Shown: positions 1,613-59,816 of the stretch, one piece after another
Layout: every line of letters starts with the position of its first letter
Position numbering within the stretch: the stretch's first letter is position 1
Source: Octopus sinensis
Taxonomy: Eukaryota
Length of the DNA: 64,000 nt
Direction: 5' to 3'
NCBI RefSeq assembly: GCF_006345805.1
Contig: NC_043003.1
Location: 91,140,001 to 91,204,000, forward strand
Position numbers and translations under genes: made by a program
The notes under the pieces: model-generated
Seen by the model: only the letters and a program-made list of their open reading frames with translations
Databases searched by the model: none
Told to the model about the DNA's origin: nothing

Positions 1613-1995
1613 TAACACAAAATGGGACAAGAACGCAAAACATTCGGACAACTAGGTAATACAAAAAGGGACAACAAAAGATCTAGATAGACGATACAAA
1701 AAAACAAGGACGGGTCATTCGAAGCTTTCTATCCTTAGTCAAGAACCGGATCATCCTCGCAATTTCGGCTCATTAATCTTGAGATTGCTCCAATCTGGCC
1801 ATCCCCAAGGAAAAACTAAGCTAAGAGCATTAGATTCCTTGGAAGAAAGCATCGAATGTATAACGAAAACAAGGACGGAAAAACAGACGATGTTACACAA
1901 ATATAAATACAAAATACAATGAAAATAATAATAACAACAGGTCAACAGGTGTCTTTCGACTGGGATGTTTTGCGTTTTAGAAAGATAATGGGTGT
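1613..1995 (-). mobile_element. microsatellite-embedded non-autonomous retroelement (PLE/retrozyme-like), family shared with 59428-59770
   Basis: Flanked by (TG)n on both sides; reverse complement aligns by eye to 59500-59765. Confidence 0.65.
1723..1800 (-). ncRNA. putative rearranged hammerhead ribozyme (core partly mutated)
   Basis: Minus strand: GCAA-TC-TCAAGA..AGCC-GAAA-TTGC..TCTTGA-CTAAGGA; stems I and III are perfect, core is CTAAGGA rather than CTGAnGA. Confidence 0.5.
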
Positions 1996-7799: not shown

Positions 7800-8785
7800 T
7801 AGAGTGAAAAAACAACGGAAGACGTGTTATAATTAAAGAATATATTCAAATCGTCAGGTTACAAAAATGTTATAAAATTTTGTGTGTAGTGACACTGTTT
7901 TCGGAGAAATGACCGGTTTCATATTTTCTTTTCGAATTTCTCATATTTCTTTACTGACACTGCGTCATCTCTTCGCTATGGTATGATGTACAAGAATTCC
8001 AGACAGGAGGAGGTAATCAGGAATGTTTTCGGTATAAGGGAGATAATCAAAAATGTTGGAATAATTTGGTTTTAATAGAATAGAATGTTAGAAGTCGTTA
8101 AGTTTTCCTTTATATTTTTTTCAATAAGGTAAGTTTCCTTATTTAAAAATCCTAGAAATGGTTAAGTTTTGGCTTACATTTTTCAATGAAGTAGGTTTCC
8201 TTATTTAATCTAACTTGTATTGGTGTTCCAATAGCACGTTCAAAAAATGGAAAGATTACAAATTTTGGGAGCAGTTGCGTTGGGTATCTATCAATGTGTT
8301 CACTAAAGGGTACACTACTCAGTTCAACTCACAGAGGATGGAATCAGACGTGCAACACAAATCGAAATAAAAACCTTCAGAAAAGATCAACACAGCAACA
8401 CACCTTCCCCGAAAATACTGCTGTACATTTCCACATACAACCCAAGACACAAAGAAGCCTTCACCACCGTCACCCAAAATTTACCGATGCTACATAAGGA
8501 CCCCATATTAAAGAAAATTTTACACACACATAAGATTATTAAACGCCACAAACAACCGAAATCACTACAAAAGATCCAAACAAAGGCAAAATTATTTTCT
8601 AAAACAATGGACGCAAAAGTGAAAAAGTGTGGTCGACCAAATTGCTCAACATGCTCAAAATTTCTAGAAGGATCAGAATTACTTTTCAAAGAGGAACGGA
8701 AATTCAAAATCAAATCTATTTTACTTGAGCATCGGAAACCCTGATATATGTTATAAGATACTCGGGCTGCACCAAAATACATATT
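7800..8785. mobile_element. Penelope-like element fragment with 5' inversion
   Basis: 7800-8312 matches 45865-46322 (minus sense); 8316-8780 matches the 46408-46868 region in the opposite orientation (KKCGRPNCSTC, IYVIR); flanked by (TA)n. Confidence 0.85.
7905..7941 (-). ncRNA. decayed minimal hammerhead in PLE 3' end
   Basis: AGAAAT-TCGAAAA-..-GAAA-CCGG-TC-ATTTCT; homolog of 45981-46020 with stem II lost. Confidence 0.45.
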
Positions 8786-24497: not shown

Positions 24498-24731
24498 TAT
24501 CTATACAATATGTTACATTACTCGGTAGTCAAGATAAAACTCTGAGTTTCAGATGCCGAAGTGGAAATCCACAACACCATCTCTTCGGTTATCTGGCTAT
24601 TTGAAAACGTTATATATAACGTTTTCAAATAGCCAGATAACCGAAGAGATGGTGTTGTGGATTTCCACTTCGGCATCTGAAACTCAGAGTTTTATCTTGA
24701 CTACCGAGTAATGTAACATATTGTATAGATA
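24498..24731. repeat. perfect palindrome, 117-bp arms, no spacer, embedded in (TA)n
   Basis: Centre AAAACGTTATA|TATAACGTTTT; arms complementary throughout; right side continues as a tail to ~24797. Confidence 0.95.
24635..24697 (+). ncRNA. minimal type I hammerhead-like motif (mirror copy 24532-24594 on minus)
   Basis: AGATAA-CCGAAGA-GATG..CATC-T-GAAA-CTC.A.GAG-TT-TTATCT. Confidence 0.6.
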
Positions 24732-33524: not shown

Positions 33525-34999
33525 GATCTTTTCCTTTTGAACGGCACTTTGTAACATAATTTCTAGATAACTAAAAAGTTTTAAACTTCGTATACTGGTG
33601 GAATGTGTTTATAAAACATCATTTTCTCTTGGCTTTATTGAGAAAATTCTATAGTTTGTAAGATATTTTGTCTAAAATTTCTTGCATTTCGGCAATTTTA
33701 ACCAATCAATTACCTCCATTGACGTAAATAACACTCTGTGCATAATGAATATGTCCCTCCTTTAAGAAACAGATTGGGTTTATTTACATTTGTGAAGAAA
33801 AAAGATACTCTTCCCCCACCCCACCCCTAACCCTAACTCTAATCCTAAATCTAAAATAGATTGAAATAGATCGATACTAGGGTTATAATTATGGGTGACA
33901 ATTTCATACGACACCGCTATAAAAAACTTAGCGGTGTCGTGTGAAATTGTCACCCATAATTATAACCCTAGTATCAATCTATTTCAATCTATTTTAGAGT
34001 TAAGGTTAGGGTTAGGGGTGGGGGAAGGATATCTTTTTTCTTCACAAATGTAAATAAACCCAATCCGTTTCTTAAAGGAGGGACATATTCATTATGCACA
34101 GAGTGGTAGAATGTGTCATATAAAACATCTTTTACTCTTAGCATTTTTGAGAAAAGCTTATATTTAGGAAGTATTTCACGTTAAAGTTGTAGATTTTCGG
34201 TAACTTCAACCAATCAAGGACGTGTATTCAGCTGAATAAAATTTCCTTTTGATGGACGGAATTTTCTAGTTAACTAAACAATTTGAAACTTCGTATACTG
34301 GTAGAATGTGTCAAAAGAAAACATTATTGTAAACAAAATTGAAAACAAAATTGTAATTTCTAAGTTTAACGTAGTTTAATGATTCGAATTTTAACCAATG
34401 AAATCCTAGCATTTGAGCTCAAACCATTTGCTGCGTCTAAAAACTCACACACACACGTCTTATTCATCCTTGTCTCTTCTGTCTTCTGTCTTCTGCATGT
34501 GCTAGAAATAACAGCTATATCTCTTAAATCGGTGAATTTCGTCGCCCAATAAAAATATTAACGATATTTTTTTAATATTTTCTTTATTTTTTTTTTACCG
34601 AAAAGGCTTCTCCCATGGTTTTTAAAGGGCCAGAAACAACAAAAACAAAACAATAATATGCCTAAAGCGGTCTTGAGTTTGCGCGTGGAGTGTGAGTAGT
34701 ATTGTAAAAATTTGCGAAATATTTTTTCAGAAAAGGATGCCCCAGCTTGTCGGAAGCTGTGATATAAATTGGGAAAAAAATTCTCACCACCAGTGCGTAA
34801 TTGGTACTAATTTATCGACCCCGAAACGATGAAACATTGACCCCACCCCTTCTGGTTTATTTACCTTTTGTGTAAATTTGTTGCGGCAACGTGTATGTAT
34901 GCTTGTGTGCGTATGTGTGTGTATGTATATGTCCGTTTGTATGTGTGTGTACGCTTATATATTAATTACTATGTGCTTGTGCAAATGTATATGCATGTG

Positions 35000-45859: not shown

Positions 45860-47018
45860 TAAAATAGTAAAAAGGGAAAAAACTACAGAAGGCTTGTTTT
45901 AAAAGGTTAAAAAATATATATTTGAGTCATTATGTCAGAAGAATGTTATAAATTTTTTTCATGCAATGACATAGTTTTTGAAGAAATGACCGGTTTCGCG
46001 TTCAGCTTTTCAAATTTCTTACATCGTTATGTTTTCGTTGAGAAGTGTAAAGTAGAGTTCCAGATAAGGGGAGGTAATAAGTGATTTCTTCCGGTGTAAT
46101 CGCTTAATATTTCTTGCATTTTTTTTTTTGGGGGGGGGGGTGAGTTTCTCTGTATAAGAATGTTGGAATGGTTAAGTTTGGGCTTGTATTTTTCAATGAA
46201 GAATGTTTCCTTGTTTAGTCTAATTTGTGTTGGTGTTCCGATAGCACATTGGTAAAATGGAAAGATTAAAAATTGTGGTAGTAGTTGCTTTGCGCATTTC
46301 TCAATGTGCTCACTAAAGGGTATCATTCTGTATTCTGGGAATGCAATCTGTTGTCGATGCAGTGTGCATCTACGTCTGAGTGATAGTCCCGTGGACCCCA
46401 CGTAGTTTTGGTGGCAGCCCGAGCATCATATGACATAAATTATGTTTTCAGAGGCACAAGTAAAATTAGATTTGATCTTGAATTTCTGTCCCTCTTTGAA
46501 GAGGAATTCTGATCCTTCTAGCAGGTTTGGACATGTTGCACAGTTCGGTCTACCACATTTTTTTACTTTTGCATCCGTAATTTCAGAAAACAATTTTGCC
46601 TTTGTGAGTATCTTTTTAAGTGATTTAGGTTGTTTGTAGCTTTTAATGACTTGGTGTATGTTTAGAATTTCCTTTAATTTGGGGTCCTTATGAAGTATTG
46701 GTAAATTCTGGGTGATGATGGTGAAGGCTTCTTTGTTTCTGGGGTTGTATGTGGATATGTAAGGTAGTATTTTCGGGGAAGGTGTGTTGTTGTGTTGAAC
46801 TTTTCTCAAAGTTTCTATGTTGATTTCTGTTGCACGTCTGATCCCATCCTCCATGAGTTGAGCTGGGTAACGTCTGTCAATTAGGGTGTTTTTGAGTTCT
46901 TGCAGTCTAAAGTTCCTGGTATTTTGTTCTGACACTATTGTGCATATCCTTCTTGCAAGGTTGAAGGGGATGTTTGTTTTAGTGTGTCTTGGGTGGCATG
47001 AATCAAAAAGTAGGTATA
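45860..47018 (-). mobile_element. Penelope-like element, 5'-truncated (RT thumb, Cys linker, GIY-YIG endonuclease)
   Basis: YLLFDSCHPRHTKTNIPFNLARRI..LIDRRYP; KKCGRPNCATC; NIIYVI*CSGCHQNYVGST..RRRCTLHRQ..EHIEKC..R..KE.FFIEKYKPKLN; ORFs 46426-47064 and 46027-46401 are one frame split by a single TGA. Confidence 0.93.
45981..46020 (-). ncRNA. minimal hammerhead (U3-A8 core variant) immediately 3' of PLE ORF
   Basis: AAGAAAT-TTGAAAA-GC.TGAAC.GC-GAAA-CCGG-TC-ATTTCTT; 7-bp stem I; same strand as ORF, starts 7 nt after the stop. Confidence 0.7.
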
Positions 47019-47143
47019 TATTGGTAAAAACGGTAAGATAACAAAAGAAAGAAAGAGACCTCAATATTATGTAAATAGAGGAAATTTACATATACATACA
47101 TACATATACATGTATTTACTCACACACACACACACACACACAT

Positions 47144-47781: not shown

Positions 47782-48217
47782 AAACAAGTCAAAAATAGAA
47801 AATGCTAAGATGATTTTATAGTGAATCTTTCAGTACCGGTTTCGGTCATTTTGAGACCTTTTCAACTGTAACGATTAAATAATTAAATTTAGAAAAATTA
47901 GAAGAAAAGTTTTTTTAAAAGAATATTTCTGTAGTTGTGTTCAGATATAAGTAGCATTCTGCCTTTCTCTGACTCCCTTGTTTGCACTTGTGTCTCGAAC
48001 ACACAAGTGCAAACAAGGGAGTCAGAGAAAGGCAGAATGCTACTTATATCTGAACACAACTACAGAAATATTCTTTTAAAAAAACTTGTCTTCTAATTTT
48101 TCTAAATTTAATTATTTAATCGTTACAGTTGAAAAGGTCTCAAAATGACCGAAACCGGTACTGAAAGATTCACTATAAAATCATCTTAGCATTTTCTATT
48201 TTTGACTTGTTTTTTCA
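47777..48217. repeat. near-perfect palindrome, 217-bp arms, 7-nt loop, embedded in (TA)n
   Basis: Loop CTCGAAC 47994-48000; one mismatch seen; short tail to ~48251. Confidence 0.95.
48126..48163 (+). ncRNA. minimal hammerhead, U3-A8 variant (mirror copy 47831-47868 on minus)
   Basis: CAG-TTGAAAA-GGTC.TCAAAAT.GACC-GAAA-CCGG-TA-CTG. Confidence 0.65.
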
Positions 48218-49891: not shown

Positions 49892-50730
49892 ACGTACATA
49901 TATGTATGTATGTATGTATGCATATATTTTATTTATTAATTTATTGCATGACTGAGCACCCTCGCGTCGTTTCGTTTCTTTTCTGTTCTCCAAGTAAGTT
50001 TTTATATATAATTATGACGCGAAACTCTGTAACCCTTTGCTTGACCTTCCCTTCCATCCTGTCTGTCTTCCTCTTTACCCGTCTCTCTCCTTCTTATTTT
50101 TCACCCTTTCTGGTTTCCTTTCCTCTCTATATATCTCTCTCTCACACAGCCGAGTCGACCACTTCCTTTCGCTGGCAGCCTCCTACAAGTGAACATGCTT
50201 TTTTCCTGCGCTCTTGAATTTTTCCATCATCTAGGCTAAAAAAAAGCCCTCAATGTTTGTTTCCTTGTCCTGTTTTTATTCTTTACTTATACTGTATTTT
50301 TTTGTATTTGTTTTTTTTTTATTTTGTATTGTTTTTACGTCCTATTTTTGTCACATTTTTTTCTTTCCTTGTTTTTACCCCTCTGCAATGGAATTTTATT
50401 TAATTCTTTCGCAGGAAGGGCTAGTTCGACGAGTCGTGTTCTGTCCTTACCTTCGAAACACGCATGGAGTCGAACTAGGGACAGCTGATGAAGGGGAATT
50501 TTCCTTGTATTGTTTGTCTTGTACTGTTTTTTCGTTGTTAAAAAAAGTCCGTTTCCCTGTTTGTTTTTACGTTTTCGTTTCTCGTTGAGTTCTACGTCTA
50601 TTTGTGGTGTCCTGTACTCACATATATATATTTATATATGCATGTATATATACATGTAGATGTAGGTACGTACATATATGTTTGTATGTATGCATATATT
50701 TTATTTATTAATTTATTGCATGACTGAGCA
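49892..50730 (+). mobile_element. non-coding element with ~65-bp terminal direct repeats (PLE/retrozyme-like)
   Basis: Direct repeats 49892-49958 and 50668-50730; contains HHR-like motif. Confidence 0.7.
50421..50496 (+). ncRNA. putative rearranged (non-circularly permuted) hammerhead ribozyme
   Basis: CTAGTTCGAC..CGTG-TT-CTGTCC..CCTTC-GAAA-CACG..GTCGAACTAG-GGACAG-CTGATGA-AGGGG. Confidence 0.65.
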
Positions 50731-59382: not shown

Positions 59383-59427
<45 letters not shown>

Positions 59428-59428
<1 letters not shown>

Positions 59429-59766
59429 CGCCAGCTAAACTTGTTGTACTGTTTATTAGTCGTAAGACACCCGCTGTTTTTGTCCTGTTTTTACCATTAT
59501 TGTTTTTTGTATTTTATATTCGTGTGGCATCGTCCGTTTTTCTGTCCCTGTTTCGTATACATTCGATCCTTCTTCCAAGAAATCTAATGCTCATAGCTTA
59601 GTTTTTCCTTGGGGCTGGCCAGATCGGAGCGATCTCAAGATTAATCAGCCGAAATTAGTAGTATGATCCGGTTCTTGACTGAAGATTGAAGGCTTCGAAT
59701 GTCCCGTCCGTGTTTTTTGTATCGTCTTCTAAATGTTTTACGTTCTTGTCCCAGTTTGTATTTTTC

Positions 59767-59770
<4 letters not shown>
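59428..59770 (+). mobile_element. TA-embedded element, family shared with 1613-1995
   Basis: (TA)n on both sides; aligns to the reverse complement of 1620-1890. Confidence 0.7.
59617..59694 (+). ncRNA. putative rearranged hammerhead ribozyme (stem III mutated)
   Basis: GGCCAGATC..GCGA-TC-TCAAGA..AGCC-GAAA-TTAG..GATCCGGT-TCTTGA-CTGAAGA-TTGAA-GGCT. Confidence 0.55.

Positions 59771-59816
<46 letters not shown>

What the first reader, a model, noticed from the sequence alone, without database searches (positions are those of the whole stretch)
59617..59694. Second, sequence-distinct family with the same rearranged hammerhead topology
Seen: the same order occurs with different helix sequences. 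Extra helix 5' strand GGCCAGATC, then GCGA-TC-TCAAGA, then AGCC-GAAA, then extra helix 3' strand GATCCGGT directly followed by TCTTGA-CTGAAGA and, after 5 nt, GGCT. Inference: identical architecture with different stems relative to 50421-50496 amounts to between-family covariation and makes chance unlikely. Stem III is damaged in this copy (TTAG instead of TTGC).
Basis: partly seen in the sequence, partly recalled or inferred. Interest (0 to 1): 0.8.

Follow-up and report, generated by a model that had tools for sequence, protein, structure and literature searches.

The report
Split-core hammerhead ribozyme in jumping DNA
This is one damaged copy of a repeat found over ten thousand times in this animal genome, whose RNA is predicted to fold into a self-cutting hammerhead wired in an unusual order with its core split in two, and which is likely the self-cutting element so far missed in Naiad-type jumping genes.

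Summary
The motif is real. It lies in a 5'-truncated copy (59426-59770) of a non-coding, Penelope-like repeat with 10,440 genome matches (control 5). Its block order (site, GAAA, CUGANGA) is that of the non-circularly permuted type-SGC hammerheads (Eckert 2023), reported there in no known organism's genome. It differs: stem II most likely pairs with a strand UPSTREAM of the motif (59613-17), not the downstream GGCT, so A9 and G10.1 are not linked. Two more helices close the gap: a hairpin ending exactly before G10.1 and a stem starting 0-2 nt after A9. All six helices hold across subfamilies, five with compensatory changes in this family. The same layout occurs in three more families here, in 10 published Naiad consensus ends from five phyla (read by eye; Naiads were said to lack canonical hammerheads) and in one metagenomic non-LTR element. 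Genomic 5' truncations pile up just 3' of the predicted cut (981 versus 114 and 142 in flanking windows), indirect evidence of cleavage in vivo. This copy has a broken stem III; 19 of 29 close copies are intact. Cleavage is untested. The scan earlier noted a permuted hammerhead in a Penelope-like element of another genome (e1-7354453).

The parts
59426..59770 (+). 5'-truncated copy of the family-B non-coding repeat (unit about 690-875 bp in tandem loci), between (TA)n tracts
   Evidence: 96.2% over 365 bp to the L014 unit; tandem spacings 687-875; fixed 3' end, variable 5' ends, inverted partners
59561..59572 (+). P0 5' strand (59561-66 and 59568-72), pairs with the strand after CUGAAGA
   Evidence: cofold; inner helix 88% paired, 3 of 5 pairs with double changes, outer helix 79% with none
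59575..59612 (+). P5 hairpin, ends on the base before G10.1
   Evidence: one-sided changes only in family B; 3 of 4 base pairs with double changes in families A+C
59613..59617 (+). stem II 5' strand (G10.1 = 59613), detached from CUGAAGA
59618..59625 (+). stem I-II tying helix, 5' strand (A-C mismatch at 59621 in this copy)
   Evidence: 5 of 8 pairs with double changes
59629..59640 (+). block S: stem III 3' strand, AUC triplet (predicted cut after 59634), stem I 3' strand
   Evidence: sequence; stem I 97.6% paired, 4 of 6 pairs with double changes
59646..59658 (+). block G: stem II 3' strand, GAAA, stem III 5' strand (two mismatches in this copy)
59665..59685 (+). tying-helix 3' strand, stem I 5' strand, CUGAAGA core ending at A9 (59685)
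   Evidence: C3 U4 G5 A6 G8 A9 invariant in 21 of 21 aligned sequences, which were picked for CTGANGA
59688..59700 (+).
50378..50496 (+). family-A copy of the same six-helix motif (P0 50378-82/50492-96, P5 50383-50414, G10.1 at 50415, predicted cut after 50440), inside an element at 49894-50716
1658..1961 (-). older family-B copy with damaged core (CTAAGGA) but compensatory changes in P0 and P5

Best explanation
The stretch is a damaged copy of the 3'-end motif of a very abundant non-coding Penelope-like repeat, and in intact copies the RNA is predicted to fold into a hammerhead ribozyme that likely cuts itself after the AUC at 59632-59634. Order along the RNA (shown by sequence and covariation): P0 5' strand, P5 hairpin, stem II 5' strand, tying helix, block S, block G, tying helix, stem I 5' strand, CUGANGA, P0 3' strand. 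Inferred fold: the three core segments assemble by pseudoknotting as in type-SGC ribozymes, the tying helix holds stems I and II together, and the normal A9-G10.1 backbone link is replaced by a four-way junction in which P0 (leaving from A9) would stack on P5 (entering at G10.1) while stem II stays on the core. Inferred role: cleavage trims element RNA out of read-through or tandem transcripts; the 3' product (5' end at 59635) is reverse-transcribed from the element's 3' end by a Penelope-like RT/GIY-YIG protein supplied in trans and inserted into (TA)n, giving many copies that begin just after the cut, and more-than-unit partial tandems when the template is uncut, tandem or re-ligated. The helper element is not identified; a Naiad is the likeliest source of the motif.
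For: Shown: order and helices (89.7-95.2% paired cells, 12-15 pairs with double changes, 0 of 500 shuffles reach the covariation score, slid controls 16-48% paired). Upstream partner: own-family 5.06 Watson-Crick pairs versus 2.43 swapped; downstream 2.44 versus 2.48 (16 representatives, five stem II sequences). Homologous families A and C change 3 of 5 stem II pairs on both sides. P5 ends at G10.1-1 and P0 starts 0-2 nt after A9 in unconstrained cofolds of most intact representatives and of L337; the family-A copy folds into P0, P5, tying helix and stem III with no constraint, z -2.75. Repeat anatomy matches Penelope-like elements as described in PMC8557442 section 6. Ten Naiad consensus 3' ends show the layout with different helix sequences, six nematode Naiads show the same cyclic order with block C intact (type CSG) (by eye). 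Truncation peak: (AT)n junctions within 30 nt upstream of the stem II 3' strand 981, in the flanking 30-nt windows 114 and 142 (minus-strand counts); 18 of the first 19 sites begin at or 3' of the predicted cut, 2 exactly at it; in family A only 8-9 of 96 listed sites cross the cut. One base between positions 9 and 10.1 is already the norm in Penelope hammerheads (PMC4209133).
Against: No cleavage assay; no precedent found for a hammerhead whose A9-G10.1 link is open. Raw genome counts do not separate the two stem II options in family B (upstream 6,066, downstream 6,226 of 10,440), and in families A+C the downstream alternative is also 93.3% paired, though 29 of 56 paired cells are U-G and a slid control reaches 85%. 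Most sequences in the family-B alignments were picked with the upstream GGCTG as a search term. Related sequences inflate covariation tests. The truncation peak counts only (AT)n-flanked ends, anchors differ about twofold in abundance (about 4-5-fold enrichment after rough scaling), and the TAAT linker offers microhomology to the target. Nested folds of several copies prefer competing local hairpins. P0/P5 were not recovered by cofold in degenerate or truncated representatives (for example C1, C2, C4, D, A5, Bc, Bd, Bg). No autonomous element carrying families A-C was found in 1.5 Mb of held loci.
Confidence: 0.64

Rival explanations
1. Plain type-SGC hammerhead with a bulge or an on/off switch: the active fold pairs the stem II 3' strand with the bases after CUGANGA (GGCU after 5 nt in family B, G-rich strand after 1 nt in family A), and the upstream pairing with P0/P5 is an inactive storage fold.
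For: Downstream GGCT in 6,226 of 10,440 family-B matches; downstream pairing 93.3% in families A+C; keeps A9 and G10.1 on one strand as in all tested hammerheads.
Against: Needs a 5-nt insert where PMC10085705 reports at most 1-2; G10.1-C11.1 kept in only 13 of 21 family-B sequences; absent from subfamily Ba; no better than swapped controls; the downstream strands are explained as P0; no usable downstream partner in L337 or the Naiad ends of Acropora, Pomphorhynchus, Eulimnadia, Beroe, Clytia, Morbakka (by eye).
Confidence: 0.13
2. The structure is conserved but does not cut on its own: a hammerhead-derived recognition signal for the retroelement protein, or a ribozyme that needs a protein or a second RNA copy.
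For: It lies about 85 nt from the element's 3' end, where RT binds; Penelope minimal hammerheads cleave weakly in vitro (PMC4209133); many copies and partial tandems span the site uncut.
Against: All catalytic residues and an NUH triplet are kept while helices turn over across five phyla; truncations step up right at the predicted cut, at a point where reverse transcription has already unwound every helix.
Confidence: 0.18
3. Chance arrangement or DNA-level palindromes in a repeat, amplified by copy number.
For: High copy number alone proves nothing; nested folding energy of the 93-nt core is not unusual (z 0.04).
Against: 0 hits in 150 shuffled windows; strand-specific G-U pairs and double changes; same layout in unrelated sequences.
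Confidence: 0.02

Closest known systems
Type-SGC hammerhead (HRIMA-1 and variants), Eckert et al. 2023, PMC10085705
   Same: Order site-GAAA-CUGANGA; short linker from stem I to stem II; helix tying the other sides of stems I and II; pseudoknotted core.
   Different: There block C (stem I strand, CUGANGA, stem II strand) is assumed uninterruptible; here the stem II strand and one tying strand sit at the 5' end and two extra helices fill the gap. Type SGC was reported from metatranscriptomes and not from genomes of known organisms; this is a chromosomal animal repeat in over 10,000 copies.
Type-CSG hammerhead (two metagenomic sequences), same paper
   Same: Same cyclic order with a tying helix; six nematode Naiad ends read by eye fit it.
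   Different: Opened between block G and the tying helix, block C intact; the octopus-type form is opened inside block C.
Type I minimal hammerheads of Penelope-like elements (Cervera and de la Pena 2014, PMC4209133)
   Same: Position in the pseudo-LTR near the 3' end; proposed processing role; tolerated extra base between 9 and 10.1.
   Different: Canonical order, tiny palindromic stem III, dimer-dependent; here full stem III, monomeric pseudoknot, six helices.
Naiad Penelope-like elements (Craig et al. 2021, PMC8557442)
   Same: 5' truncation, partial tandems, inverted copies, (TA)n targets; Naiad_Obim and Naiad_Ovul end in this motif (family D, 287 matches here, control 0).
   Different: Described as lacking canonical hammerheads, with unexplained 'core' and 'half core' words; family B has no ORF, so clade membership cannot be tested.
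Non-LTR retrozymes (bioRxiv 10.64898/2026.07.22.740005, passages)
   Same: Non-coding, ribozyme-bearing, tandem-forming dependants of Penelope-like elements.
   Different: Defined by type I hammerheads in each tandem unit; most copies here are dispersed 5'-truncated monomers with a different ribozyme.

Membership tests
Hammerhead ribozyme class | C3-U4-G5-A6-N7-G8-A9, G12-A13-A14-A15.1 and U16.1-H17 | tested here: met
   28,311 genome matches of YCGAAA-N18..34-CTGAWGA versus 2,895 control
Hammerhead ribozyme class | Stems I, II, III closing the core, with G10.1-C11.1 and A15.1-U16.1 | tested here: met
   19 of 29 close copies have all six helices; the window copy itself fails stem III
Hammerhead ribozyme class | A9 joined to G10.1 directly or through 1-2 bases | tested here: not met
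   best partner of the stem II 3' strand lies 35-43 nt upstream of GAAA in 16 of 16 representatives; limit as stated in PMC10085705
Hammerhead ribozyme class | Site-specific self-cleavage | not testable with these tools
   indirect only: truncation peak; only assembled contigs were available
Type-SGC hammerhead | Order S, G, C with a helix tying stems I and II | tested here: met
Type-SGC hammerhead | Intact block C | tested here: not met
   not excluded by counts alone in families A+C
Rfam hammerhead families | Covariance-model match | tested here: not met
   only a weak snoRNA hit in 59500-59780 at E up to 10; no hammerhead among the 150 listed of 172 window hits
Penelope-like elements | Fixed 3' end, 5' truncation, partial tandems, inverted 5' copies, microsatellite targets | tested here: met
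   against PMC8557442 section 6
Penelope-like elements | ORF with RT and GIY-YIG endonuclease | tested here: not met
   longest stop-free frame in the unit 137 codons; no RT hit upstream in 20 family-B loci: non-autonomous
Naiad clade | N-terminal GIY-YIG, CxC and DKA motifs | not testable with these tools
   no ORF in family B; 20 family-D loci are all truncated before the ORF
Naiad clade | (not defining) same 3' RNA layout | tested here: met
   by eye in 10 consensus ends; family D counted in this genome
Non-LTR retrozymes | Tandem units each with a type I hammerhead | tested here: not met
   tandems occur but the ribozyme is not type I

The most novel reading that the evidence does not exclude
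A seventh natural hammerhead topology, outside the six-permutation scheme: the catalytic core is assembled from four separate strands, the A9-G10.1 link is replaced by a four-way junction, it cleaves in vivo, it is the missing ribozyme of Naiad retroelements across at least five animal phyla, it has jumped to a non-LTR element, and with some 25,000 core-intact copies it is among the commonest ribozymes of this genome.
Probability: 0.55. Interest if true: 0.92.

Novelty: new variant of a known kind. Interest (0 to 1): 0.84.

Why it matters
It would overturn the stated assumption that CUGANGA and stem II cannot be separated, move non-circularly permuted hammerheads from rare metatranscriptome contigs into animal chromosomes at very high copy, and explain why Naiad elements seemed to multiply without a ribozyme: standard descriptors cannot see this order. 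Nematode Naiads (intact CSG form) and the split form give a traceable path for how such permutations arise, a question left open in PMC10085705. The truncation step gives rare genomic evidence that Penelope-type ribozymes cut the RNA that is actually copied. A 150-nt transcript and four mutants test all of it.

Tried and rejected
Rfam: nothing at the motif. Minus strand: no hammerhead core. Link of family A to Neptune-type ORFs: seen in L072 and L082 but rejected, because intact Neptune-type copies end earlier with their own canonical-order hammerhead variant and in L072 a (TA)n tract separates the two; L082 is one fused case. Search for the helper: 70 GIY-YIG loci showed C-terminal endonucleases where read; no Naiad ORF reached; RLE-type query from L337 hit one unrelated locus. 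Splicing as a way to join A9 to G10.1: a CAG precedes G10.1 in families A and C but is the base of P5, family B lacks it, no donor follows A9, and no spliced joint appeared in contigs. Sequencing runs: no RNA holder listed on record; only contigs, which cannot show ends; a 45-nt skip in two RNA-guessed runs fits a microhomology deletion. RNAalifold recovered only P5 and stem I, since it cannot draw pseudoknots. Forgia 2023 and Perreault 2011 passages held no such variant. I first mislabelled three coral Naiads as nematode in a note and corrected it.

Full report
Observation. The order is cleavage block, GAAA block, CUGANGA block, which no circular permutation of a standard hammerhead gives. 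Rfam has no match there. A descriptor with stems I and III and an upstream stem II hits two places in the window (59634, 50440) and none in 150 shuffles; a looser any-order descriptor gave about 0.05 hits per shuffled window and found only the 50.4-kb copy, since this copy's stem III is broken.

The host repeat. The 111-bp query had 1,619 first-look candidates, 40 scored, at 93-100%. The 30 fetched copies share a 3' end about 85 nt after the core, have variable 5' ends, and include partial tandems (L014, L015, L027) and inverted partners (L002, L006, L013, L018). Units repeat at 687-875 bp and carry no long frame. The window copy spans 59426-59770 between (TA)n tracts. This is the anatomy given for Penelope-like elements in Craig 2021, PMC8557442 (passages, section 6 and supplement read). 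Exact-pattern counts: family B 10,440 versus control 5; all families 28,311 versus 2,895. The genome is octopus-like by inference: a motif from the published Naiad_Obim/Ovul 3' end has 287 matches, control 0.

What is known. Eckert 2023 (PMC10085705; parts 2-6 of 8 of the text read, no figures or supplements) describe type SGC and CSG hammerheads, active in vitro, from metatranscriptomes and metagenomes, none of these in genomes of known organisms, and assume that no more than one or two bases separate CUGANGA from its stems. Craig 2021 could not detect canonical hammerheads in Naiads and flagged 10 'core' and 8 'half core' cases. Cervera 2014 (PMC4209133, passages) note a conserved extra base between positions 9 and 10.1 in Penelope hammerheads.

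Which strand completes stem II. A 5-bp Watson-Crick partner lies upstream at 59613-17, abutting the extra helix. In 16 hand-picked representatives with five stem II sequences the upstream window gives 5.06 Watson-Crick pairs with the own strand and 2.43 with other families' strands; the downstream window gives 2.44 and 2.48. In 21 family-B sequences the upstream helix is 93.3% paired, the downstream 78.3%, with G10.1-C11.1 kept in 20 versus 13 of 21; most of these were chosen with the upstream word, a bias. Subfamily Ba (7 of 20 loci) lacks the downstream word. Homologous families A and C swap 3 of 5 upstream pairs on both sides. Against: raw counts are level, 6,066 upstream and 6,226 downstream of 10,440, the upstream count being lowered by 5' truncation; and in A+C the downstream option is 93.3% paired, half by U-G.

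Two more helices. Cofolding the 62 nt before G10.1 with the 24 nt after A9 gave, in most intact representatives of 29, a hairpin (P5) ending on the base before G10.1 and a stem (P0) starting 0-2 nt after A9; it failed in degenerate or truncated ones such as C1, C2, C4, D, A5, Bc, Bd and Bg. Counted on alignments, the whole model scores 89.7% paired with 15 of 42 pairs changed on both sides (20 family-B sequences) and 95.2% with 13 of 22 (15 A+C sequences); 0 of 500 shuffles reach either covariation score and slid controls give 27-48%. Kinship inflates such tests. P5 shows only one-sided changes in B and the outer P0 segment none. P0 explains why the bases after the core are conserved. Of 29 close copies with a matchable core (of 30 loci), 19 have all six helices; the window copy fails stem III and the tying helix, so it is probably dead.

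Beyond this genome. Reading the Naiad consensus file by eye (last 300-400 nt of 42 of 54 entries, plus motif hits; not run through a program), ten ends show the split layout with P0 and P5 and with different helix sequences: Bfor (stem I only 2 bp), 3_Chem, Amil, Aacu, Anas, 2_Movir, Plae, EuTe, Obim, Ovul, from five phyla as the table lists them (three corals and two octopuses are near-identical, so about seven independent cases; P0 is imperfect in the octopus pair); Esco fits with a mismatched stem II. Six nematode entries (3_Nbra, Hcon, Hpol, Asuum and two placed by file position as Ppac and Parc) show the same cyclic order with block C intact, that is type CSG. The rest showed other or no motifs in the part seen. 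One of 118 metagenome loci, L337, has the full layout in the 3' region of a tandem element with RVT_1 and zf-RVT hits; its label as an RLE-type, HERO-like non-LTR element is recalled, not from a call.

Does it cut? No direct test was possible. If the RNA is cut after 59634, reverse transcription from the 3' end should often stop there. (AT)n tracts within 30 nt upstream of the stem II 3' strand number 981 on the minus strand, against 114 for the 30 nt upstream of G10.1 and 142 for the 30 nt upstream of the downstream GGCT (plus-strand counts 6,036, 662, 609 are inflated by overlapping starts). Scaled roughly by anchor abundance this is 4-5-fold. Of the first 19 distinct sites, 18 begin within the 11 nt 3' of the cut or at it (2 exactly) and 1 crosses it. 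In family A, 8-9 of 96 listed sites cross it (by eye; about a sixth of that list is chance by the control). Stalling on structure should stop the enzyme at the 3' edge of the fold, which is the low window. Microhomology of the AT-rich linker with the target is the main caveat.

Mechanism. Shown: sequence order, six helices with covariation, repeat anatomy, truncation peak. Inferred: pseudoknotted monomeric fold with a four-way junction in place of the A9-G10.1 link; cleavage; processing of element RNA; mobilisation in trans. Intact Neptune-type RT/GIY-YIG ORFs exist in the genome and use the same (TA)n targets, but no helper was tied to family B.

Novelty. Ten full-text searches and passages of PMC13725137, PMC10162972, PMC3088659 and bioRxiv 10.64898/2026.07.22.740005 found no report of a permuted hammerhead in an animal retroelement or of a core opened between A9 and G10.1. 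The library lacks most subscription papers; PMC13725137 cites one further paper on hammerheads with additional helices that I did not identify, and the Eckert supplements were not seen. An unchecked note of this scan (e1-7354453) mentions a permuted hammerhead in a Penelope-like element of another genome. Verdict: works like a hammerhead; not a member of type SGC as defined; a new topological variant. Interest 0.84.

Noticed in passing
L092, L094, L095, L096, 3' of the 780-aa ORF: Intact Neptune-type elements (RVT_1 plus C-terminal GIY-YIG, preceded by a 479-aa frame in L095 and L096) end in a canonical-order minimal hammerhead with a U3-A8 core about 100 nt from the 3' end.
   Followed up: partly
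window 46027-47085 (-) and 8307-8744 (+): Fragments of Penelope-like RT C-terminus and zinc-finger/GIY-YIG region.
   Followed up: no
window 38625 (-) and 38717 (+): Inverted pair of canonical-order type I hammerhead-like motifs; position 17 reads G, which would not cleave.
   Followed up: no
L172:1096 (-), L227:3587 (+), L055:292 (+): A canonical type I hammerhead family whose stem II sequence is the same as family B's; possible donor of that helix, or coincidence.
   Followed up: no
L337:1827-1945: Full split-core motif in the 3' region of a tandem non-LTR-type element from a metagenome, so the motif is not confined to Penelope-like elements.
   Followed up: partly
L082 and L247: A Neptune-type 3' end fused without (TA)n to a family-A copy, and a family-C copy directly upstream of a family-B copy; possible template switches.
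   Followed up: partly
window 49994-49999 and 50412-50414: Splice-donor-like word near the start of the family-A unit and acceptor-like CAG right before G10.1, recalling the 5' intron of Penelope; no spliced joint seen in contigs.
   Followed up: partly
PMC8557442 supplement, 3' ends of Naiad-1_Movir, Mgal, Bpla, Mphi, Scon, Mmer: Words resembling a twister ribozyme (likeness recalled, not tested); oyster, ark-clam and pearl-oyster Naiads share another conserved motif; spider and ostracod Naiads show further hammerhead arrangements.
   Followed up: no
L109:1304 (-): A fifth family with P0 and a GNRA-capped P5 but a missing stem II 5' strand; stem I resembles that of Naiad_Plae.
   Followed up: partly
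window 24547-24682, 33800-34037, 47953-48041: Long near-perfect inverted repeats that draw microRNA-family hits in Rfam, most below the family cut-off; probably transposon-derived palindromes.
   Followed up: no
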